Shown here in pieces: positions 17,119-31,845 of a stretch of 64,000 bases of DNA. A model generated the notes under the pieces. That model ran no database searches and was not told where the DNA came from. It saw only the letters and a list, made by a program, of their open reading frames with translations. Each line of letters starts with the position of its first letter. Positions within the stretch are counted from its first letter, which is position 1. Position numbers and translations under genes: made by a program. Location of the stretch: the IMG/VR virus record IMGVR_UViG_3300030101_002616, positions 1 to 64,000 of that record; one strand, 5' to 3'. Source of the DNA: a virus.

Positions 17119-20100
17119 ATGGCAAAGGGATTACAAACTTTTCTTAGTTATAAATACCTAAAAGATGCTTCAGGTATTCAATATCTTGTACTTATATCTC
17201 ATGTAAGTAATCCTGTTATTGGTGCTGCAGGTCTTGGAAAGGGTTTTACTTTAACTCCTAAAACTGTAAGTACTTTAAAAGATGGTAACAGAGAACAAGT
17301 ATATACTTATACAGGTTCTGGTAATGTAACCGCAAATTTTAAAGAAGGTCAAACTATAACTATCAGTGTATCTGATATTCCAAAAGGCAGTGAACTTGCA
17401 GTTCCTTTTGACTCCTTAGAAAGATCTTTTAATTTTGATGTATCATCTGAATCTTTACTTGGGTATGATATATCTGATGCTTTATTCTATTCAGAAGGTA
17501 CGGCTAGCTATAGAGAAAGTTATATACTACCACAATCTAGTAATCCTCATTTAGATACTAGTAGCAGAACAGATTTTTATTATACAGCAGATGGCTCTGC
17601 TGCATACATGGGATCTACCAGCCTACAAAACAAATTTTTAAATAATATAGGTTATAGTAATAGAGGATCTGATAGTACTGATTTAGGTAAATTCAGAGGA
17701 GGATCTGATGATAATACTTCAGTTGAATTTACTACTACCCACCAAACTCCAGTTGCCGGACAAACAACTGGTCCTGCAACGCAAGGGGGTATAGTAGCAT
17801 TTAGTTTTATACCTAGAACTAGTGCTGTTGATGACACCCCATTACCTATTATTGATGTATGTCAAGATCCTCAAGCTACTAATTTCTATTTAACAGGCTG
17901 TATAAACGAAGAGTTACCCTGTGTAGATTCAGGAACTACTCATGCTAATGATTGTGAAGGAGTTGCTTTAACAGCAGATATAATAAATAACAGCGTCTTA
18001 ACTAATGGGTCATGTTGTGAATATACAACTGGATGTGAAGATTTTAATGTAGTTATAGGTGATATAACAGCAGCTAATATAGACGTAGCAAATGGTACTA
18101 TTAATATAACAGTATCTGGAGGAACGCAAAATTATACTGCAGTAGTTGGTGCTATAGAACTAGATAATCCAGAAAATTCATTTAGCACTCAAACTACAAA
18201 TAGTATTTCTACTGATGAATTTACTCTTAGCAGTTTATTTCCTGGTAAATATAATCTTAGTGTAACAGATTCTACATCAGGTACAGCTTGTAATCAAAGA
18301 ATAGAGTTTATTGTACCACCAAAAGGATCTGATCCTGGTGGTGAAGGAGATTTTGGATGTAAAGATACTAGCTCAGCAATCAATCACGATAACTCTGTTA
18401 CTACACACCAAGATAGACTATGTGTTTTTTGTGATGCTGACTCTGGTTTATTATTTGCAGATTCTACTAATCCAACATTTTTAGGAAATGCTTTTGTTCC
18501 TACTTCTGACAGTCCTATTTTTAATTTTAATAATGCTACAAGCACTCCAGAAGGTGTAAGTATTGAAAATGGTTCACTTACTTTTCTTGGTGTTCAACTA
18601 TTTAATGAAGATATTAACTTATCTGAGCCTCCTGCAGTTCATAATTTTAATCCTCTTGAAGAGTTTACTACTGATCAAGCTAGTATGTTTGATTATCAGT
18701 TGTACAGAATTGATTCAGAAGTAGACGGGTTACTGAATGAAATTAATCTTGCTGAATCAGGAAATGTAAAAGCTTGGCTAACTGCTAATGCAACAGCTGT
18801 AGGAAGTGTGGTTCAAACTACGGGTGCAGCACACTCATTTACAAGTTTAGGTCCAGGAACCTATACAGTATTAGTTACATATGATGCAGATGGAACTCCA
18901 AATGGTGATCCAGAAGAAGAACAATGTTATTATGTACCTATACCTCAAACTGTCTATCAAAGAGGATGTACTGATCCAACTGCTGATAACTACAACACTG
19001 CTTTTGAGTCTGATCCAAATTCATTTTTACCAAGTGAGGGTTGTTTTTATCCGCCCCAAACTTGCAATGATCCAGGAATAGTATTTGATGCTGTAGTTTC
19101 ATGCAATGCAGACGACGGAACTATACAAATTGACTCAATAGATTTTGTATCACTTAATCCTGATATATTAGATGCAGGAGTAAATGGGTTTATTGTAACT
19201 CAGGATCATGTAAACCCACCATTTGGAGCAGGAGTAATTGTTGCTGCAGGAGGATCTGGATTTGCTGCTCTTCAATATATTGCGTGGGAACTTTTTTGTT
19301 ACGATCTTTTTAATAGTAGTATTGATCCTAATATGCATTGGATGAGTTTACCAGTTGGATTTCCTCAAGGCTATGTAAACTCTGAAGGTGTTGTACCTGC
19401 TAGTGGGGCTGGTAACCTTGCAAACATGTATAGAATACTTTCAACAATAACTTTTGCTGATGGAACTGATTTATTTCTTGGAGAAATAGGTTTAGGTGAC
19501 CTTTTACCAAATACAGTTCCTTTTGATACTCCAAATCTTGTAAATTATGGTGAAGTAACTTGTGAGCATATAAGTACACACGGTACTCCTACTTCTGTAA
19601 CATTTAATTATAACTATGGGGAATATAATGTATATGGAGAAAGCGCATCTTATACACATATTTTTACAATAAGTCAACTAGAACAATTTACTGGTTGTTG
19701 TGAATTTTCAGAACCTGAACCTGAAGGCTGTACTGATCCTACTGCAACAAACTTTGATCCAGCTGCTATAATAGACGACGGTTCTTGTATTTACCCTGAA
19801 CCCCCAGTGGTTCCAGGTTGCACAGACCCTACAGCTACAAACTTTGACCCACTTGCTACAGTCGACGATGGATCATGTGAATACATTCAACAAGGTTCTT
19901 GGTTACAAGCTGATTGTTTTACTTGTTCTTACAATGAAAACTTTCCTAATGGATTTGAAACCCAAGAAGAGTGTGAAGATTCTATTGAGTCTAACACAGA
20001 CTGTTGTGTTCTTGAGACTTATGTTAATAATGCTGGTGATATTATGGGTACCCTTCCAGTATTAGATACAACTAACTCAAGTTCAATTTTTAATGATGTG

Positions 20101-21585
20101 ACAGGATTATGTGACGATCAATCTACTGGTTCGTTCGTTTTTACTTTTCCTTCTGGTTTAAACAACAGTGTATTTAATATGACTAGCAATGTATCTTTCT
20201 TTTGGAGAGTAGGTACTCTTTGTTGTCCTAGTGTACAATATAGTAATATCTGGTCCGGAGCTCTAACTAATGATTTTGGAGAGGTTACTGATGCAATTAC
20301 TAATATGGATACGTCAGATTTAATAGATTTAACTGGTGCAACCCAGTCCATTACTGTGAATGGTATAGAAAGTGGACAATACATAATGTGGTTTTATTTC
20401 TTTGATATACCTTTTGATGCTACTGGGGCAGACCCAATAAATGGCCTACCATACCAAGATGGTGGACAATCTTGTACTACTTACACAGTAAATATTGATA
20501 TTGGCATAGATGATTGTGATGATAGTATTGTACATGGTTGTACTGATCCTGAAGCAGATAATTATAATGAAAGTGCAACTGTAGATGATGGAACATGTAC
20601 ATACACAGATATTAATGACGACAATCCTGATGGTGGTGATGGTGGTGATCCAGGAGGTCCTGGTGGTCCTGATGAAGAAGTTGGTTGTGATTGCGGAGAT
20701 GGTACATATTCTCCAGCATGTTGTCCACCTACTGCAATTTGTGGATGTCAAGATCCAAATGCAAGTAATTTTAATCCAAATGCCACTTATTATGATCCAA
20801 CCGCAGATGGTTGTGGGTGTGAATATGATGGAGATCCTCCATTTGTAGGTGATCCACCAATTACATCAACTGTTTTAGCTTGTGTTCCTAGAACTATTCA
20901 TAAATTAATAAGATACAATAATGAGTGTATAGCAAGGGCAGGTCATAGAGTTTATACTAAACATATAACGGGATTAGGCAATAGTTGTTCTAATATGGAA
21001 ACTATGAAAATGGTTATTATTAATGATCTTATTAGTAGACTAGGGCTACCTTGTATATTTAATTGTTCAGATAATGATACGCCTGCTCCAGATACAGCTT
21101 CTAATGTTTGTAAAGATAATTGGACTAATAATGGTTCTTTATACTGGAATCCAGCAGATGCAGCAGCTAATATATATAATTTAGGAATACATGTTAGAAG
21201 ACCATTTGTACCTAACCCAGGTGGTTTACCAGCACCTATATATGTTGCTATATCTAACTCTGGATTAGACATAGATCCATTCTCTAACAATTCAGCTAGT
21301 GGATGGAAGTTATGTAAAACAGAATCTATAGTAAATGAAAAGAATAATTATTTACCAAACTTTCTTAAATTTGCACACGAGTATTGTAAAAATTGTGGAA
21401 TACCTCCATATAGAATAGATGATACTCTTTCTTCAAGTGTTACAGATACATTTACTACTGGTGGAAATGATATAACAGCAGGGGGGACTACATTTGATAA
21501 TACTTCAGATCAAACAGATCTAACAACTCTTGACGATATAGAGGGAAATGAAACAGATAACGAAACAGGAGGTTTATACTCTTAA
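17119..21585 (+). CDS. Large acidic Cys-rich adhesin-like virion protein with GCTDP repeats, 1488 aa
   Basis: About seven GCxDPxAxN(Y/F)...DDGxC repeats, a SprB-like Ig segment (GTINITVSGGTQNYT), no signal peptide, located in the tail module. Confidence 0.75.
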   Translation: MAKGLQTFLSYKYLKDASGIQYLVLISHVSNPVIGAAGLGKGFTLTPKTVSTLKDGNREQVYTYTGSGNVTANFKEGQTITISVSDIPKGSELAVPFDSLERSFNFDVSSESLLGYDISDALFYSEGTASYRESYILPQSSNPHLDTSSRTDFYYTADGSAAYMGSTSLQNKFLNNIGYSNRGSDSTDLGKFRGGSDDNTSVEFTTTHQTPVAGQTTGPATQGGIVAFSFIPRTSAVDDTPLPIIDVCQDPQATNFYLTGCINEELPCVDSGTTHANDCEGVALTADIINNSVLTNGSCCEYTTGCEDFNVVIGDITAANIDVANGTINITVSGGTQNYTAVVGAIELDNPENSFSTQTTNSISTDEFTLSSLFPGKYNLSVTDSTSGTACNQRIEFIVPPKGSDPGGEGDFGCKDTSSAINHDNSVTTHQDRLCVFCDADSGLLFADSTNPTFLGNAFVPTSDSPIFNFNNATSTPEGVSIENGSLTFLGVQLFNEDINLSEPPAVHNFNPLEEFTTDQASMFDYQLYRIDSEVDGLLNEINLAESGNVKAWLTANATAVGSVVQTTGAAHSFTSLGPGTYTVLVTYDADGTPNGDPEEEQCYYVPIPQTVYQRGCTDPTADNYNTAFESDPNSFLPSEGCFYPPQTCNDPGIVFDAVVSCNADDGTIQIDSIDFVSLNPDILDAGVNGFIVTQDHVNPPFGAGVIVAAGGSGFAALQYIAWELFCYDLFNSSIDPNMHWMSLPVGFPQGYVNSEGVVPASGAGNLANMYRILSTITFADGTDLFLGEIGLGDLLPNTVPFDTPNLVNYGEVTCEHISTHGTPTSVTFNYNYGEYNVYGESASYTHIFTISQLEQFTGCCEFSEPEPEGCTDPTATNFDPAAIIDDGSCIYPEPPVVPGCTDPTATNFDPLATVDDGSCEYIQQGSWLQADCFTCSYNENFPNGFETQEECEDSIESNTDCCVLETYVNNAGDIMGTLPVLDTTNSSSIFNDVTGLCDDQSTGSFVFTFPSGLNNSVFNMTSNVSFFWRVGTLCCPSVQYSNIWSGALTNDFGEVTDAITNMDTSDLIDLTGATQSITVNGIESGQYIMWFYFFDIPFDATGADPINGLPYQDGGQSCTTYTVNIDIGIDDCDDSIVHGCTDPEADNYNESATVDDGTCTYTDINDDNPDGGDGGDPGGPGGPDEEVGCDCGDGTYSPACCPPTAICGCQDPNASNFNPNATYYDPTADGCGCEYDGDPPFVGDPPITSTVLACVPRTIHKLIRYNNECIARAGHRVYTKHITGLGNSCSNMETMKMVIINDLISRLGLPCIFNCSDNDTPAPDTASNVCKDNWTNNGSLYWNPADAAANIYNLGIHVRRPFVPNPGGLPAPIYVAISNSGLDIDPFSNNSASGWKLCKTESIVNEKNNYLPNFLKFAHEYCKNCGIPPYRIDDTLSSSVTDTFTTGGNDITAGGTTFDNTSDQTDLTTLDDIEGNETDNETGGLYS
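19726..19880 (+). repeat. Tandem coding repeat GCTDPTATNFDPxAxxDDGSC (two adjacent copies)
   Basis: Near-identical peptides with synonymous DNA differences. Confidence 0.85.
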
Positions 21586-24271: not shown

Positions 24272-25318
24272 ATGATTAGAGTATTTGTAATATTATTAGT
24301 TTTCTTAATGTCTTGTGCAGCACCGAAAGAGTGTTGCTCACAGATTAAAAAAGCTATAAAGTTTTCTACATTCTATGTAGCAGCGAATGGAGGTACGTCT
24401 TTATCTGATAGAGAAGTATATTCTATAAATGGAAGTACACTTTTATATGATACTATTATTACTCCTTATGACTACTCATTATCTATGGGTATTCGTAAGA
24501 TACAGAGGTTTCAATATGAAGGTACTTCACCATTTAAAGATGGTACAGAGTCATCATTTAGTGATGCTGCTAGTATAGGTAGAAACCCTTTTGAGTATTT
24601 ATTTGAGATAGAATATAGAAGACAGGAGGGTGTAGAGTATTTTGATCAGCATCATTTTATAAGATATGCTAGATCTAAGTGGTTTACAAAAGCAGAATAT
24701 ATTAAAGATGGTTTTGCAGACATAGAGTATTTTGAGGGTACACACAGACTACGACTGAATGGTGGTAAAAAACTATCATTCAACATAGGCGCTGTACAAA
24801 GATTAGCAGAGCCGTATGGATATGATCCATTAGAAGAGTGGACTATGTCTACAGGTGATATACACTATACACAACTAGCTATTGAAGAGGGATATAGTAT
24901 AGATGTATATGAATCTGAGTATAGAGCACCAGATGGTGCAATTGTAGCAAATAGTGCTGAGGTATGGAATCAGATAGTTATGCCAGAAGTATTAGAAAAT
25001 TATGTAGAAAAGAAACGAAATGAACTAGCTAATCAATGGCAGCATTCATTAGTAATAGGTTTTGATTTCTATCACTATAAGAAAAACTTTTGGTTACACT
25101 CTTGGGGTAACTTTATGCCTTACCATTATAATGATGGTGGACAATATTCTTATCATAATTTTAATGATGGAGAGCAGTGGTATGATTACTCAGGAGGATT
25201 AATATTTGGACTGAAAGCAACAAAACACTTAGGATGTTTTATTGAAGGTAAATACAATAAGTATTGGAATAAAGAATGGTACGATTTTAAATTAGGAATT
25301 AACTACGTTATATTTTAA
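24272..25318 (+). CDS. Putative outer-membrane beta-barrel protein with signal peptide
   Basis: Start MIRVFVILLVFLMSC (ATG 24272, 1 nt after the upstream stop); 12 or more amphipathic aromatic-rich strands; C-terminal WYDFKLGINYVIF resembles a BAM beta-signal ending in Phe. Confidence 0.7.
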   Translation: MIRVFVILLVFLMSCAAPKECCSQIKKAIKFSTFYVAANGGTSLSDREVYSINGSTLLYDTIITPYDYSLSMGIRKIQRFQYEGTSPFKDGTESSFSDAASIGRNPFEYLFEIEYRRQEGVEYFDQHHFIRYARSKWFTKAEYIKDGFADIEYFEGTHRLRLNGGKKLSFNIGAVQRLAEPYGYDPLEEWTMSTGDIHYTQLAIEEGYSIDVYESEYRAPDGAIVANSAEVWNQIVMPEVLENYVEKKRNELANQWQHSLVIGFDFYHYKKNFWLHSWGNFMPYHYNDGGQYSYHNFNDGEQWYDYSGGLIFGLKATKHLGCFIEGKYNKYWNKEWYDFKLGINYVIF

Positions 25319-25320
25319 AA

Positions 25321-25599
25321 ATGGCAACTGAAATAGGAAAAGACACTAAAATTAAATTAAGTTTAGAAACAATAATATCTTTAGGATTTGTATTAGTAAC
25401 TATGACTGGTATGTGGTTTACACTAAAAGGGGAGATAGCTGAAGCAAAAGAATTACCAGTAGCTCCAGATCCAGAAGTAACACGTATGGAGTTTGATATG
25501 AAAGATCAAATGATACGTAACACTATTATGAATACTCAAGAAGATGTAACTGAAATAAAAGCTACATTAGAAAAGATAGAAGATAAACTTTATAAATAA
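25321..25599 (+). CDS. Single-TM protein with C-terminal coiled coil, 92 aa
   Basis: TM IISLGFVLVTMTGMWFTL; heptads VTEIKATLEKIEDKL. Confidence 0.7.
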   Translation: MATEIGKDTKIKLSLETIISLGFVLVTMTGMWFTLKGEIAEAKELPVAPDPEVTRMEFDMKDQMIRNTIMNTQEDVTEIKATLEKIEDKLYK

Positions 25600-25937
25600 T
25601 GTGGAAAGTTATATACAAGCATTTATTATTTTTATTTTTTTGTACGGTCTCGTATACTGCTTTTTCACAGATCACAGTGATTCACTTTAACGCTGGCTGG
25701 AACGAAGCTAATGATGTAGAGTGGTTTGATAAATTATCAGACGCTGGTAAAAAAAGTTTAAGTATTGACGATAAAGACATACAAAAGGAATATGCTATTG
25801 CTATTGTACCTACTATCATTGTGTTTGATGAGGGCGAAGAAGTAAAACGTTTTCAAGCAGATCTTAGTTTTGAGATGGTGGCTACAAGAAAAGAGATACA
25901 GAATTACATCGACGAATTAATAATGAGTAAATTTTAA
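25599..25937 (+). CDS. Secreted thioredoxin-fold protein lacking CxxC
   Basis: Signal peptide ...SYTAFS-Q; VIHFNAGWNEAN at the WCxxC position; KEYAIAIVPTIIVFDEGEEVKRF is the cis-Pro/Trx C-terminal pattern. Confidence 0.75.
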   Translation: MWKVIYKHLLFLFFCTVSYTAFSQITVIHFNAGWNEANDVEWFDKLSDAGKKSLSIDDKDIQKEYAIAIVPTIIVFDEGEEVKRFQADLSFEMVATRKEIQNYIDELIMSKF

Positions 25938-25938
25938 T

Positions 25939-26820
25939 ATGGCAAATATTTTAGGATTAGGATTAAGCACAATAAAAGGATCAACAGTTGATCAACCATA
26001 TGCTACAAGGTTTGCTAGCTTTAATGGATCAAGTAGTAAGGCTTTAGCAGCACCAGGTAGACTGCCTTTAATATTAGCAGGTAGTGGTACTCTTGGAGAG
26101 AATATAACATTTTCTATGTGGATAAAGGCTACATGGACTATACCTGCAAGTCCAGCTGATGCAGTAGTTAACAATATACCATTTTTTATGTTAGGTAGTG
26201 ATACAGATGTGCATGAAGCGTTTAGAATGTATTATATGATAGAAGACGGTTCTGCTAACAATAAAAATGATGTTGTTATGGAACTAAGAAGTTCAACTCC
26301 TAGTAATTCTAGACAAAATGAAATAATGAGATTAAGCGCTACAGGCGGCAGTCCAAGCAATTCGACTATAACAGGTAGTAGTGCCGCTGATCACGATAAA
26401 ATGTGGGACAGTGATAACTCTGCTATAACAACAAATAATGATGGATTTGTACATATAGTTTGTAGTAGAGGTACCTTAGATTGGAAAATATTTTGGAATG
26501 GTATTAACTGTGAAGTGATAGACAATGATTCAGGCTCATTAAACACAGATGTAACTGAGTTTGATTCTTTTAGTATAGGATATTGGGAGTATGCTGATGC
26601 TTATGGTCAACTAGGTGTAAGAGATTTTGCAATATATAATAGTCAACTATCTGGTTCAGATGTAACTGCATTATACAATGGTGGAGTACTAGCTGATCAT
26701 AGAGATTTAATTACACCACAGCCTATAGTATATTATCCTTTTGAAGAAGATGGTAATGACGTAATAATATCTACAGGACCACACTTAACTTTAACCGATG
26801 TAACTTTTGAAAATATATAA
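25939..26820 (+). CDS. LamG / concanavalin A-like lectin-domain protein
   Basis: TFSMWIK, FVHIVCS, WKIFWNG, RDFAIYNSQLSGSDVTALYNGG, YYPFEE motifs; no signal peptide. Confidence 0.8.
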   Translation: MANILGLGLSTIKGSTVDQPYATRFASFNGSSSKALAAPGRLPLILAGSGTLGENITFSMWIKATWTIPASPADAVVNNIPFFMLGSDTDVHEAFRMYYMIEDGSANNKNDVVMELRSSTPSNSRQNEIMRLSATGGSPSNSTITGSSAADHDKMWDSDNSAITTNNDGFVHIVCSRGTLDWKIFWNGINCEVIDNDSGSLNTDVTEFDSFSIGYWEYADAYGQLGVRDFAIYNSQLSGSDVTALYNGGVLADHRDLITPQPIVYYPFEEDGNDVIISTGPHLTLTDVTFENI

Positions 26821-28829
26821 TGAATAACTTTACTAAATTTTTATACGCATTTTTAATAGTCGCAGTATTTACTGCAGCTTCAGCGTTTGGACAATGTCCT
26901 CCAGGATCTTGGAGTTTAGATATAACTGTAAATCCTGATCAATATCCAGAAGAAACAACTTGGCATTTAGTTACGTTTAGTGGTGACACTTTGTTAGAAG
27001 GTGGGCCATATACTAATATAGTAGATTATGAACCACAGTACGCAGGTATATGTGTACCTGTTGATAGTTTTCTGTTTATATTAAACGATCAATATGGTGA
27101 CGGTGTTGCAGGTAGCTTGTGGGGTGGTAATGATGGTTCTATTTATATAGAGCAATGTGGTGATACTATATGGACTTTACCTGTAGCTGATTTTGGCTAT
27201 CAAATATATGATACAATATATACTTCTGGATGTCCTCCGCCCCCACCAATATACGGGTGTATGGATAGCAGTTATGTAGAGTTTGACTTAACAGCTACAT
27301 TAGACACAGGTATGTGTTTTACACCAAAGATATATGGATGTACAGACTCATTAGCATATAATTATATAGACTCAGCTAATACAGATATAAATATAGATAG
27401 CTGTATGCATGAGTTAGAATTAACCGACTTAGCTGGAAATGGCTGGGCTGGTTCTTCATTAAAACTATCACAGGCAACTAGTATGATGCCGCCATTTAAC
27501 TATCAAGTTATTGGTACGTATACATTGCTAGATGGTTTTGATACAACGTTCTTTATAAATTTAGCAGCAGGGTATCCTGTTAGAGCAGTGTTTGAAATTA
27601 CACAGCAATCAGACTTTACTGCAGTACAATGTGGCTATAGCTTATATTCTGAAGATTATGTAGCTATAGATATAGAAGGTGGATTTGTAAATCCTATACC
27701 TCCATTCTTTCCTATTATGGGAGATCCATACTGCGGTAATAATTGTATAGAAAGAACATATGGTTGTATAGACAGCCTAGCAGTAAATTATAACAATACA
27801 GTAAATACAGATGATGGAACTTGTTACTATAATCCAGGGTGTACTAATCCACTTTATTTGGAGTATGACGCGGCTTATGACTATGACGATGGTAGTTGTA
27901 TTACGATGGTTGTATACGGATGTATGGACTCAACTGCACTTAATTACGATCCATTGGCTAACGTTGAGTTACCTAACTCTTGTATTGCTATCGTAGAAGG
28001 GTGCACTGACAGTACAATGTTTAATTATAATATCAATGCAAATGTTGATGATGGTAGTTGTATATCTTTTTACTACGGATGTACAGACCCAACAGCATTT
28101 AACTATGATAGCTTAGCGAACACAGACGACGGCTCATGCATATCCGTTGTTTGGGGCTGCACTGACCCTGCGGCCTTTAACTACAATTCATTAGCTAATA
28201 GCGATGATGGATCATGTATACCAGTAATATTTGGTTGTACAGATCCTAGTATGTTTAACTATTGTGACACTTGTAACACAGATAATGGTAGTTGTATACC
28301 TTACATATATGGATGTATGGATAGTACAGCTATGAATTATGATGCTACAGCTAACACAGATAATAACACTTGTATATATCCATTCCCTGGTTGTATGGAT
28401 ATTACAGCTGTAAACTATGAACCGTTAGCTAATGTTACTGATAGTAGTTGTTACTATGAGTCAGGGTGTGATGCAAGTGTTCCATATTATATACCTAACT
28501 CGTGTTTTGAATGGGTTATACAAGTAGATCCATATTGCTGTGATAATAGTTGGGATGAGCCTTGCTATGATTTATATAACTATTGTGTAGATGGTTGGAC
28601 AGGTCCTACAGACATAGCAATGTTTGAGAGAGTAGGCGTACTACCATATCCTAATCCATCAACAGGTGTAGTAAACTTTACAGCTGAGGTAGGAATAAAA
28701 GTATACGACATGTTAGGTAAGTTGATATTAGAAGATAAATCAAATACAATAAAACTTAACAAAGGTATATATCTAATTAAGATTTCTAAGGAAAACTTAA
28801 ACATAACAACAAAACTAATTATAGAATGA
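26820..28829 (+). CDS. T9SS type A sorting-domain protein with Cys-rich GCxD repeats
   Basis: Sec signal ...ASAFG-Q; PDQYPEETTW/DQYGDG N-domain; 11 GCxD repeats; C-terminal YPNPSTG...VYDMLGK...KGIYLIKI...TTKLIIE is the canonical Por/T9SS type A CTD. Confidence 0.9.
   Translation: MNNFTKFLYAFLIVAVFTAASAFGQCPPGSWSLDITVNPDQYPEETTWHLVTFSGDTLLEGGPYTNIVDYEPQYAGICVPVDSFLFILNDQYGDGVAGSLWGGNDGSIYIEQCGDTIWTLPVADFGYQIYDTIYTSGCPPPPPIYGCMDSSYVEFDLTATLDTGMCFTPKIYGCTDSLAYNYIDSANTDINIDSCMHELELTDLAGNGWAGSSLKLSQATSMMPPFNYQVIGTYTLLDGFDTTFFINLAAGYPVRAVFEITQQSDFTAVQCGYSLYSEDYVAIDIEGGFVNPIPPFFPIMGDPYCGNNCIERTYGCIDSLAVNYNNTVNTDDGTCYYNPGCTNPLYLEYDAAYDYDDGSCITMVVYGCMDSTALNYDPLANVELPNSCIAIVEGCTDSTMFNYNINANVDDGSCISFYYGCTDPTAFNYDSLANTDDGSCISVVWGCTDPAAFNYNSLANSDDGSCIPVIFGCTDPSMFNYCDTCNTDNGSCIPYIYGCMDSTAMNYDATANTDNNTCIYPFPGCMDITAVNYEPLANVTDSSCYYESGCDASVPYYIPNSCFEWVIQVDPYCCDNSWDEPCYDLYNYCVDGWTGPTDIAMFERVGVLPYPNPSTGVVNFTAEVGIKVYDMLGKLILEDKSNTIKLNKGIYLIKISKENLNITTKLIIE
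27761..28455 (+). repeat. Nine tandem ~26-aa coding repeats GCxDxxAxNYxxxANxDDGSC
   Basis: Visible in the translation; roughly 78-nt period with synonymous divergence. Confidence 0.9.
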
Positions 28830-29293
28830 AATTAGAAGTATTAAGATTTAGCTCACAGTCAGACTGTACACATGGATTGTTGTTTGAAGTAAATGATTTA
28901 GGCAGACACTTCTTGTGCTATACATTAGAAGACGAACATCGTGTTCTAAAAGTAAAAGGCGAGACAAGAATACCATCAGGTACATATAAAATAGAACTAA
29001 GAAAAGAAGGAGGATTTCATGCTAGATACGATAAAAAATATCCTGGTATACACCGTGGTATGTTGCATGTCATTGATGTTCCTGGTTTTGAGTATATTCT
29101 TATTCATACTGGAAACACTGACGAGCATACTGCTGGTTGTCTTATCGTTGGAGACAGTCAAGAAAACAATCTTATTCTCCGCGATGGGTTCGTTGGTAAG
29201 AGCGTTAACGCGTATAAGAGGATTTATCCAGCTATTGCAAAGGCAATAGAACAAGGAGAAGAAGTAACGATAGAATATATTGATTTTGATTAA
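28826..29293 (+). CDS. DUF5675-family protein (candidate peptidoglycan-acting lysis enzyme)
   Basis: CYTLED...ETRIPSGTY...DVPGFEYILIHTGN...HTAGCLIVG; the His...GC pair resembles an L,D-transpeptidase-like active site. Confidence 0.75.
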   Translation: MKLEVLRFSSQSDCTHGLLFEVNDLGRHFLCYTLEDEHRVLKVKGETRIPSGTYKIELRKEGGFHARYDKKYPGIHRGMLHVIDVPGFEYILIHTGNTDEHTAGCLIVGDSQENNLILRDGFVGKSVNAYKRIYPAIAKAIEQGEEVTIEYIDFD

Positions 29294-31425: not shown

Positions 31426-31845
31426 ATGATACAAAAAGTAATGGGCGGATTATTTGGCAAAGTGCTAGACAACGCTGAAGGAATACTAGACAAAGTAATT
31501 ACAACTGATAAAGAAAGAGATCAGGCTAAGATAGAATTACAAAAGATAATGCTAGAAGCAGAACGTGAAGCTTTTGCTAAAGAAGTAGAAGATAGAAAGT
31601 CTGCAAGAGATATGTATAAAGATGATGCTATCATCCAAAAAGTGTTAGCAACTTTGTTCACAGTTGCATACTTTGGTATTAGTTTTGTGATGTTTAATCA
31701 CTTTGTTCTAGGAGATATAAACTTGGGAGAGTTTGAAATTAGCTTTATTTCTACTATCTTTGGAGCAATGTCGGCAAAAGTCAACACAATTGTTGATTTC
31801 TTTTTTGGCGGCAGTTCAAAGAAAAATAGTAACGAAGACAAATAA
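31426..31845 (+). CDS. Putative holin
   Basis: LDKVITTDKER...DRKSARDM, two TM helices, FFFGGS plus charged tail; resembles the GTA-type 3TM holin pattern. Confidence 0.7.
   Translation: MIQKVMGGLFGKVLDNAEGILDKVITTDKERDQAKIELQKIMLEAEREAFAKEVEDRKSARDMYKDDAIIQKVLATLFTVAYFGISFVMFNHFVLGDINLGEFEISFISTIFGAMSAKVNTIVDFFFGGSSKKNSNEDK

What the first reader, a model, noticed from the sequence alone, without database searches (positions are those of the whole stretch)
24272..28829. Phage-encoded cell-envelope cassette: beta-barrel + membrane coiled-coil + secreted redox-dead thioredoxin + LamG + T9SS cargo
Seen: five tightly coupled genes (gaps of 2 nt or less, or TAATG overlaps) between tail-fibre genes and the DUF5675 lysis candidate. 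Three have N-terminal export signals and one has a TM anchor, so four products look destined for the host envelope rather than the cytoplasmically assembled virion. Established: T9SS cargo needs Sec export plus a CTD, and Bacteroidota often co-encode dedicated OM barrels (PorV, SprF/PorP-like) that shuttle or anchor cargo. Inference: the phage builds a surface-display module on the infected cell using host Sec/BAM/T9SS, for superinfection exclusion, receptor masking, adhesion of carrier-state cells, or an unconventional spanin-like role. I know of no described system like this in a crAss-like phage.
Basis: partly seen in the sequence, partly recalled or inferred. Interest (0 to 1): 0.9.

Follow-up and report, generated by a model that had tools for sequence, protein, structure and literature searches.

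The report
Phage envelope trio plus T9SS cargo
An uncultured marine phage of Bacteroidota sends four of its own proteins into the host's inner membrane, periplasm, outer membrane and cell surface; three of them form a conserved, undescribed trio that often sits beside the cell-bursting genes, so it may be a new way of opening the outer membrane, though nothing has been tested.

Summary
All five genes are real and lie at the stated coordinates. A is a signal-peptide protein that folds as a 12-strand-type outer-membrane barrel. B is a single-pass membrane protein with a helical tail. C is an exported thioredoxin fold with no CxxC. D is LamG-like and has no export signal. E is a Sec-exported protein with a type A T9SS sorting domain.

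They are not one cassette. A, B and C form a conserved trio, found together in 144 of 173 related viral loci across at least four phage groups. The trio is absent from 50,697 GenBank phage records, Pfam, PHROGs and NCBIfam. It is much better conserved than capsid or terminase genes, so it moves between phages.

In five independent arrangements the trio directly abuts an endolysin of a different family, and twice a holin as well. My best reading (about 0.4) is a spanin-like device for breaking the outer membrane.

E travels with the trio in only one group and is an accessory surface protein. D fills a variable slot. A barrel that serves as a dedicated T9SS adaptor is unlikely.

This scan has reached the same trio reading before on other phage genomes. 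Phage-encoded T9SS cargo is already published (Bellas 2020). No function has been tested.

The parts
24272..25318 (+). A: exported outer-membrane beta-barrel protein (348 aa). It founds an unnamed phage-only family.
   Evidence: Signal peptide and C-terminal GINYVIF. AF2 model plus fold matches to 12-strand OM barrels, Z 16.5. 3444 homologues at 90% clustering and 432 clusters at 50%. No Pfam, PHROG or NCBIfam hit.
25321..25599 (+). B: inner-membrane anchored protein (92 aa). It has a short N-terminal cytoplasmic part, one TM segment, a Pro-rich linker and a helical periplasmic tail.
   Evidence: Alignment A2 of 29 homologues shows a conserved TM segment and the KELP...EFDMKD motif. A 232-aa long form in another clade is homologous (hhalign 96.9%).
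25599..25937 (+). C: exported thioredoxin-fold protein (112 aa) with no CxxC. Its C-terminal residue is always aromatic.
   Evidence: A profile matches PDB thioredoxins at E 1.4e-6. The active-site position reads FNAGWNEAN and the cis-Pro loop VPT is kept. The last residue is F or Y in 112/112 homologues.
25939..26820 (+). D: LamG/concanavalin-like protein (293 aa) with no export signal. It occupies a variable slot.
   Evidence: Atlas feature hits to Laminin_G_3 viral clusters score 0.98. Only L004 holds a close homologue. Slot proteins of L012 and L071 hit PF13385.
26820..28829 (+). E: Sec-exported, Cys-rich repeat protein (669 aa) with a type A T9SS C-terminal sorting domain (residues ~610-669, nt 28647-28826).
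   Evidence: PF18962 and TIGR04183 hits. The CTD fold matches RgpB and NucA CTDs. 37 Cys and 7 strict repeat copies. CTD-bearing homologues occur in 55 group-1 loci and none near the trio in other clades.
28826..29293 (+). F: DUF5675 protein (155 aa), a candidate peptidase-type endolysin. Its start overlaps E's stop.
   Evidence: PF18925 E 3.6e-27, with a weak Tlde1 hit. Described as a C82-like lysin candidate in bioRxiv 10.64898/2026.04.11.717860.
29019..29249 (+). Embedded +1-frame ORF inside F (76 aa, two hydrophobic segments): a candidate overlapping holin-like gene.
   Evidence: Stop-free in 23 of 25 distinct homologues. Synonymous-codon shuffles give P <= 0.001.
31426..31845 (+). Holin-like membrane protein (139 aa).
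   Evidence: Weak GTA_holin_3TM hit; relatives in L071 and L062 reach 24.9 and 21.8 bits. Homologous to the 149-aa protein that closes the L076 lysis cassette.
17119..21585 (+). Context: a 1488-aa signal-less tail-region protein that shares E's Cys/Asp repeat.
   Evidence: Three strict copies of the C-x-D...N-Y/F...DDGSC motif.

Best explanation
The stretch holds three separable things.

(1) A, B and C are a conserved, horizontally exchanged phage module. It places one protein in the inner membrane (B), one in the periplasm (C) and one in the outer membrane (A, inserted through the host's Sec and BAM machinery). I read it as the outer-membrane-disruption step of lysis, a functional equivalent of spanins. 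B plays the i-spanin-like part. The beta-barrel A replaces the lipoprotein o-spanin. C bridges B's tail to a conserved periplasmic turn of A. Once F and a holin have removed the wall, the complex breaches the outer membrane.

(2) E is an accessory protein of one phage group. It is exported by Sec and then by the host T9SS to the cell surface. It probably binds the same ligand as the tail-region protein whose repeats it shares.

(3) D is a variable LamG-like protein and is not exported.

Shown here: the folds, the export signals, the co-occurrence and the gene neighbourhoods. Inferred: the physical A-B-C chain, the timing, and any membrane-breaking activity.
For: The trio is linked:
- All three genes are present in 144 of 173 loci. 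B is followed by C even where A is displaced.

The trio abuts lysis genes in five independent arrangements with different lysin families:
- DUF5675 in group 1, for example B-C-E-A-F in L019.
- Amidase_2, followed by a holin homologue, in L076.
- Peptidase_M15_3 in L077 and L080.
- PG_binding_1+Amidase_2, then Phage_holin_4_1, in L104.
- A phrog_33083 endolysin-like protein, then a holin, in L133.

Adjacency counts: 30 of 105 loci with 3-kb flanks have a recognised lysin within 500 bp, and 75 have a lysin or holin within 6 kb.

A two-part variant exists: in the P0174 clade a long B (232 aa, extended coiled coil, ending GGRF) sits next to A with no C.

Terminal aromatic: C always ends in F or Y, and so does long B.

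The module evolves apart from the virion core:
- In G003 and G004 the terminase is 27% identical and the capsid protein undetectable or 25%. A is 66/61%, B 54/61% and C 66/62% identical there.
- In G001 the pattern reverses (MCP 95%, A 79%, B 47%).

No canonical spanin candidate was found on the coding strand.

Not a prophage gene: 3 hits, all MAG contigs, in 185,579 species genomes.

Literature: 91 of 677 phages of Gram-negative hosts have no identifiable spanin (PMC6139136).
Against: - No experiment exists, and no cultured phage carries the family.
- Many P0131-clade loci (L127, L128, L151, L157, L167, L170) show the trio after a ~1500-aa protein with no recognised lysin nearby. 30 of 105 loci show neither a lysin nor a holin within 6 kb.
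- The loci are phylogenetically related, so the counts overstate independence.
- In the window itself, D and E separate the trio from F. F's role as an endolysin is itself inferred.
- B's periplasmic part is only ~58 aa. That is much shorter than Rz and has no Cys, so a membrane-fusion mechanism like that of spanins is not evident.
- The barrel model is of middling confidence (pLDDT 68).
- Late operons pack lysis genes next to tail genes anyway.
Confidence: 0.4

Rival explanations
1. Surface and envelope remodelling for superinfection exclusion or receptor masking. A, B, C and E change the infected cell's envelope so that other phages, or the phage's own progeny, do not adsorb to it or inject into it. 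E masks the receptor by binding it with the same repeats as the tail-region protein.
For: - E shares its Cys/Asp repeat with the 1488-aa tail-region protein and sits among tail genes.
- Some relatives encode further exported proteins nearby: lipoproteins between A and B, and small 8-strand-like OMPs.
- The module is exchanged between unrelated phages, as host-interaction genes are.
- T5 Llp, encoded next to the receptor-binding gene, is a precedent (from memory).
Against: - A, B and C are highly conserved and core-like across groups whose fibres differ. Known exclusion proteins are sporadic and receptor-specific.
- The trio occurs without E in three clades.
- It abuts lysins and holins repeatedly.
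- It lies in the late structural operon, whereas exclusion needs early expression (inference).
Confidence: 0.22
2. The barrel is a dedicated T9SS partner (PorV-, PorP- or SprF-like) that shuttles or anchors E. B and C act as helpers, so the stretch is a self-contained surface-display module.
For: In group 1, E is embedded in the module (B-C-E-A in L019 and L054) and stays with it even where capsid genes are unrelated.
Against: - A-B-C occurs without any CTD protein within 5 kb in the P0131, P0174 and L076-80 clades.
- E's CTD is type A (TIGR04183). By established knowledge type A relies on host PorV/PorU rather than a PorP/SprF-type partner.
- A's best fold matches are 12-strand barrels (autotransporter, KdgM/NanC, FapF), and it has no PorP_SprF Pfam hit.
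Confidence: 0.06
3. The barrel is an outer-membrane enzyme or channel that acts alone. It could be a lipid A deacylase or phospholipase that weakens the outer membrane, or a small solute porin that feeds the infected cell.
For: Fold matches include LpxR (Z 13.3), OMPLA (Z 10.4-11.2), PagL (Z 7.9) and the KdgM/NanC porins (Z 16). From memory, OMPLA activation by colicin lysis proteins is a precedent for barrel-mediated envelope leakage.
Against: - No conserved His-x-Ser or similar catalytic set. The near-invariant His is missing in P0153.
- A porin or enzyme would not need an obligatory membrane coiled-coil and a dead thioredoxin.
- Fold similarity among 12-strand barrels says little about function.
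Confidence: 0.1
4. The proteins are virion parts (tail accessories), or the stretch is an assembly chimera with host DNA.
For: The stretch lies between tail-fibre-like genes. E shares repeats with a tail-region protein.
Against: - Signal peptides that obey the Q-rule are conserved in all A, C and E homologues. Virions assemble in the cytoplasm.
- The module's divergence is uncoupled from capsid and terminase.
- The same layout occurs in 79+ viral contigs from many samples. GC is uniform. The stretch is covered at base depth in independent marine metagenomes.
- Almost no cellular copies exist.
Confidence: 0.03

Closest known systems
Two-component spanins (lambda Rz/Rz1 type; Kongari et al. 2018, PMC6139136)
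   Same: An inner-membrane protein with an N-in TM segment and a helical periplasmic tail, paired with an outer-membrane component. The genes sit beside the endolysin and holin. The components are phage-specific, diverse and mobile. A two-part form exists (long B plus A).
   Different: - The outer-membrane part is an integral ~12-14-strand beta-barrel, not a small Pro-rich lipoprotein.
- A third, thioredoxin-fold periplasmic protein is usually present.
- B's periplasmic part is short (~58 aa) and has no Cys.
- There is no sequence or profile similarity to any spanin family.
- Function is untested.
Disruptin (phiKT gp28; bioRxiv 10.1101/515445)
   Same: A non-spanin answer to the outer-membrane step of lysis in a phage with no spanin.
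   Different: Disruptin is a single small cationic peptide. This is a three-protein, envelope-spanning set.
Phage-encoded T9SS cargo ('Cryophage', Bellas et al. 2020, PMC7468147; T9SS sorting-domain ORFs in crAss-like contigs, de Jonge et al. 2019, PMC6949934)
   Same: A phage gene with a signal peptide and a type A T9SS sorting domain, presumed to use the host's secretion system.
   Different: - Cryophage's cargos are variable island genes with enzyme domains (endoglucanase, GH39, PA14).
- E is a conserved Cys-repeat protein (mean column identity 57% over 29 homologues).
- E is embedded in the A-B-C module next to the lysin gene.
Phage-encoded outer-membrane proteins of temperate phages (lambda Lom, PA-2 Lc porin) and T5 Llp (from memory)
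   Same: Phage proteins inserted into the host outer membrane through host pathways.
   Different: Those are single lysogenic-conversion or exclusion genes. This trio is essentially absent from cellular genomes and lies in late or lysis regions of apparently lytic phages.

Membership tests
Two-component spanin | i-spanin: N-in single TM segment with a periplasmic coiled-coil domain | tested here: met
   B has one TM segment at ~16-34 and then a helical, heptad-like tail. Long B hits coiled-coil families. The topology is inferred, not measured.
Two-component spanin | o-spanin: small outer-membrane lipoprotein with a lipobox Cys | tested here: not met
   The outer-membrane partner is a 348-aa beta-barrel. 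Most homologues have SPI-type A-x-A/Q sites, and only 23 of 138 have a lipobox-like motif. No small lipoprotein ORF lies on the coding strand.
Two-component spanin | Genes located in the lysis cassette next to the endolysin and holin | tested here: inconclusive
   True in five independent arrangements. 30 of 105 loci have neither a lysin nor a holin within 6 kb. In the window, D and E intervene.
Two-component spanin | Required for outer-membrane disruption; complements an Rz/Rz1 defect | not testable with these tools
   Needs genetics in a cultured host-phage pair.
T9SS type A cargo | N-terminal Sec signal peptide | tested here: met
   E residues 1-24 form a hydrophobic h-region ending AFG|Q. 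The Q-rule holds in 46/46 homologues.
T9SS type A cargo | C-terminal Por_Secre_tail (TIGR04183) domain at the very C-terminus | tested here: met
   41 bits against a cutoff of 23, at residues 610-669 of 669. Fold match to the RgpB CTD and to the NucA CTD in the T9SS complex (TMt 0.64).
T9SS type A cargo | Secretion depends on host T9SS (SprA/PorV/PorU) | not testable with these tools
   Needs expression in wild-type and T9SS-mutant Flavobacterium.
PorV / PorP-SprF type T9SS outer-membrane partner (for the barrel) | Sequence or fold membership in the PorV (FadL-like) or PorP_SprF families | tested here: inconclusive
   None of 21 family members hits any Pfam family, even at E <= 1. The top 50 fold matches are other barrel classes. 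A family that is not listed is not excluded.
PorV / PorP-SprF type T9SS outer-membrane partner (for the barrel) | Obligatory co-occurrence with a CTD cargo | tested here: not met
   No CTD protein within ~5 kb of the trio in the P0131, P0174 and L076-80 clades.
Thioredoxin (redox-active) | Thioredoxin fold | tested here: met
   A profile matches PDB thioredoxins at E 1.4e-6.
Thioredoxin (redox-active) | CxxC active site | tested here: not met
   None of 31 aligned homologues has CxxC. The site reads WNxxN, FNxxN or FAEEV. The mature window protein has no Cys.
LamG / Laminin_G_3 | A Pfam or profile match above threshold | tested here: inconclusive
   Window D has no Pfam hit at E <= 0.1. Atlas features score 0.98 to Laminin_G_3 clusters. 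Slot proteins in L071 (54 bits) and L012 (27.7 bits) pass.

The most novel reading that the evidence does not exclude
A-B-C is a third, unrecognised class of phage outer-membrane-disruption machinery, after spanins and disruptin. A phage-encoded beta-barrel is inserted by the host's own BAM machinery. It is coupled through a dead thioredoxin adaptor to an inner-membrane coiled coil. In one lineage, a T9SS-exported surface protein is recruited to the same module. This would be the standard lysis endgame of abundant marine Bacteroidota phages.
Probability: 0.3. Interest if true: 0.9.

Novelty: new variant of a known kind. Interest (0 to 1): 0.72.

Why it matters
- How phages of Bacteroidota get through the outer membrane at lysis is essentially unstudied. 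About one in seven phages of Gram-negative hosts has no recognisable spanin.
- The trio is abundant in ocean metagenomes: thousands of sequences, and read depth 5-50 times that of the surrounding phage genome in four samples.
- It is confined to uncultured phages and matches no described family. It is therefore a concrete, testable candidate for that missing step.
- It also shows that lytic marine phages routinely use host Sec, BAM and T9SS to place their own proteins in every envelope layer.
- If the lysis reading is wrong, the trio is still a large phage-specific envelope system of unknown role.

Tried and rejected
- Complex prediction on A(25-348) + B(36-92) + C(25-112) with C as partner: no verdict (score 0.00). 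This is evidence neither for nor against binding.
Contexts of the most divergent family members (P0153, P0188, P0160) could not be fetched. Viral-contig scans with P0153 and P0160 found nothing. Alignment A4 was too divergent for a pattern scan.
- Fusion searches: no longer protein contains the C fold. The one longer hit to A (P0271, 706 aa, with tRNA-synthetase Pfam domains on a 4.3-kb contig) was not followed up and may be a miscalled gene.
- No RNA holder was listed for the stretch, so expression and timing could not be examined.
- The promoter and terminator scan did not differ from shuffled sequence.
- PorV/PorP-type chains were not among the listed fold matches. This does not exclude them.
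- Catalytic-triad idea for the barrel: no invariant His/Ser pair across the divergent alignment.
- E's N-terminal beta-sandwich domains gave no clear fold match.
- DNA and protein searches of GenBank phages with four family members found nothing.

Full report
CONTEXT

The window is the first 64 kb of an 80,483-bp IMG/VR virus record estimated to be 93% complete. Terminase, portal and major head protein match PHROGs. The capsid protein is about 30% identical to Crassvirales capsids from Bacteroides, Flavobacterium and Cellulophaga phages. The phage is therefore a distant, marine, crAss-like phage. GC content is even across the stretch, at 0.32-0.36. Marine metagenomes from several studies hold the sequence.

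OBSERVATION

The junctions are as described: a 2-nt gap, TAATG, a 1-nt gap, TAATG and ATGA. The genes on either side are joined just as tightly, so coupling does not define a five-gene unit.

- A (24272-25318) has a signal peptide and ends in GINYVIF. With a 21-sequence alignment, AlphaFold2 gives a hairpin-strand barrel at pLDDT 68. Its best structural matches are all outer-membrane barrels. VIA Z is 16.5 (rmsd 3.8, 205 aligned) to the EstA autotransporter barrel. Z is 16.0-16.2 to KdgM/NanC, 15.6-15.9 to NalP and 14.3 to FapF. LpxR and OMPLA score lower.
- B (25321-25599) has one TM segment, a Pro-rich linker and a helical tail.
- C (25599-25937) is a thioredoxin fold. A profile matches PDB thioredoxins at E 1.4e-6. 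None of 31 homologues has CxxC.
- D (25939-26820) has no Pfam hit of its own. It resembles Laminin_G_3 viral clusters by language-model features, with a score of 0.98. Proteins in the same slot of L012 and L071 pass the Pfam threshold.
- E (26820-28829) carries a type A T9SS sorting domain. TIGR04183 scores 41 bits against a cutoff of 23. The modelled C-terminal domain matches the RgpB CTD and the NucA CTD bound in the F. johnsoniae T9SS.

The signal peptides of A, C and E are followed by Gln in 132/138, 112/112 and 46/46 homologues. The figure for the B anchor is 7/92. This is the Bacteroidetes Q-rule for signal peptidase I substrates (PMC5837995). It supports real export and also points to a Bacteroidota host for every clade.

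THE FIVE GENES ARE NOT ONE CASSETTE

A scan of viral contigs with A found 79 loci at 33-90% identity. A, B and C co-occur in nearly all of them, sometimes in the order B-C-...-A. D has a close homologue only in L004.

A profile search found 432 clusters at 50% identity. Two further clades were fetched. One has 221 loci on contigs of up to 167 kb. The other has 10 loci.

Overall, 144 of 173 loci hold all three genes. In the small clade, C is missing and B is a 232-aa long form. This form is homologous to B (hhalign 96.9%). It has an extended coiled coil ending in GGRF. C itself always ends in F or Y.

A CTD-bearing E homologue accompanies the trio in 55 group-1 loci. None lies near the trio in the other three clades.

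WHAT THE TRIO SITS NEXT TO

- L076: B-C-A is followed directly by an Amidase_2 lysin, a 47-aa ORF and a homologue of the window's holin-like gene.
- L077 and L080: a Peptidase_M15_3 lysin follows the trio.
- L104: a PG_binding_1+Amidase_2 lysin follows, then a Phage_holin_4_1 holin.
- L133: a protein matching an endolysin PHROG follows, then a holin.
- Group 1, including the window: a DUF5675 protein follows. A 2026 preprint places this family with C82-like peptidase lysins.

Among 105 loci with at least 3 kb on both sides, 30 have a recognised lysin within 500 bp. 75 have a lysin or holin within 6 kb. By rough inference, a random 2-kb module in a 50-100-kb genome would have the lysin within 500 bp a few percent of the time. 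The loci are related, so the five different lysin families are the stronger argument.

Against this, a sizeable subgroup shows the trio after a ~1500-aa protein with no recognised lysin nearby. Examples are L127, L128, L151, L157, L167 and L170.

EVOLUTIONARY BEHAVIOUR

Two complete relatives (G003 and G004) have a terminase only 27% identical to the window's. Their capsid protein is undetectable or 25% identical. Yet A is 66% and 61% identical, B 54% and 61%, and C 66% and 62%.

In G001 the pattern reverses: capsid 95%, terminase 96%, A 79%, B 47%, C 63%. The module therefore moves between phages independently of the virion core. That argues against a structural role. It fits genes that work on the host envelope.

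The family is essentially absent from cellular genomes. There are 3 hits in 185,579 species, all on MAG contigs. It is also absent from 50,697 GenBank phage records and from Pfam, PHROGs and NCBIfam.

In four marine metagenomes, depth over A-B-C and F is 5-50 times the baseline of this phage. Many co-occurring relatives must share these genes.

MECHANISM

On the coding strand of this genome, the only real genes with export or TM signals are A, B, C, E and a holin-like gene. There is no lipoprotein-type spanin candidate.

The best-supported reading is that the trio links the inner and outer membranes and acts at the last step of lysis, in the place spanins occupy. By the model's topology, the most conserved stretch of A (R75...G103) falls in a long periplasmic turn of low confidence. 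I take this as a likely docking site for C or B. That is inference only.

How the outer membrane would be breached is open. B's periplasmic part is too short and too Cys-poor to look like Rz. Confidence in the lysis reading is about 0.4.

E is best read as a T9SS-exported surface protein. It shares a binding repeat with the 1488-aa tail-region protein and is highly conserved, with 57% mean column identity. Receptor masking is a reasonable but untested role. D is a variable LamG-like protein without an export signal.

COMPARISON WITH THE LITERATURE AND WITH THIS SCAN

- Spanins are defined as an inner-membrane coiled-coil protein plus an outer-membrane lipoprotein, or a single lipoprotein with a C-terminal TM segment. 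91 of 677 phages had none (PMC6139136).
- Disruptin is the only other described solution (bioRxiv 10.1101/515445).
- A 2025 survey reports only unimolecular spanins in Bacteroidetes phages (PMC12596118).
- Phage-encoded T9SS cargo was reported for 'Cryophage' (PMC7468147). It was also noted in crAss-like contigs (PMC6949934).
- Q-rule signal peptides in phage genes were noted for Porphyromonas phages (PMC10367356).
- I found no paper describing a barrel-based lysis or envelope module, within the limits of the library searched.
- After I had formed this reading, a look-up showed that this scan has flagged the same trio on many other phage genomes. Earlier follow-up agents reached the same 'lysis-linked barrel trio' reading. 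This agrees with my reading but is not independent proof.

SIDE FINDING

A 76-codon ORF in the +1 frame inside F (29019-29249) encodes two hydrophobic segments. It is stop-free in 23 of 25 distinct homologues down to 73% nucleotide identity. Synonymous-codon shuffles keep it open with P <= 0.001. It may be an overlapping holin-like gene. If so, holin, lysin and trio would sit together.

VERDICT

The trio is an undescribed, abundant, phage-only module. Its function remains inferred.

Noticed in passing
window 29019-29249 (+), inside F (28826-29293): A +1-frame ORF of 76 codons with two hydrophobic segments. It is stop-free in 23 of 25 distinct DUF5675 homologues, and its ATG is kept in 19. Synonymous-codon shuffles give P <= 0.001. 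Only 1.5% of comparable windows in other genes have such a run. It is a candidate overlapping holin-like gene within the lysin gene.
   Followed up: partly
window 17119-21585 and 26820-28829: The Cys/Asp repeat C-x-D-x-x-A-x-N-Y/F...DDGSC occurs in both the signal-less 1488-aa tail-region protein (3 strict copies) and the exported E (7 strict copies). ORFs with two or more copies occur only in group-1 loci and the MAG contigs.
   Followed up: partly
window 31426-31845: A 139-aa membrane protein with a weak GTA_holin_3TM match. It is homologous (BLASTP E 9e-6) to the 149-aa protein that ends the L076 lysis cassette. It is probably the holin, or a second holin.
   Followed up: partly
L096:6206-6778, L127:6227-6955, L128:6218-6931, L153:6200-6610, L172:6178-6738: In some large-phage relatives, a lipoprotein-like gene (signal peptide ending in Cys) is inserted between the barrel and B. 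It matches no family. It may be a fourth, variable outer-membrane component.
   Followed up: no
L104:9534-9959, L116:7128-7556: Small (~141 aa) exported proteins ending ...GFGLKF/RF, with a weak OMP_b-brl match. They are encoded a few kb from the trio, so these phages carry more than one outer-membrane protein gene.
   Followed up: no
L084:4300-4998 and relatives (L086-L093): The long form of B has a ~75-aa N-terminal cytoplasmic extension (MKIGDLLLLKGYINKKQLTSAL...). By eye it resembles T2SS-E/MshEN-type N-terminal domains. Pfam did not confirm this.
   Followed up: no
window 24408-25912 and 28923-29223: Summed contig depth in four marine metagenomes is 5-50 times the flanking baseline over A, B, C and F. 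These are the genes that a much larger co-occurring phage population shares.
   Followed up: partly
window 25939-26820; L002:9656-10441; L062:7238-8032: Proteins in the variable slot share an N-terminal M-x-N-I-L-G-L-G-L-G-like motif ahead of divergent LamG-like or unassigned bodies. This resembles exchangeable heads on a conserved adaptor.
   Followed up: no
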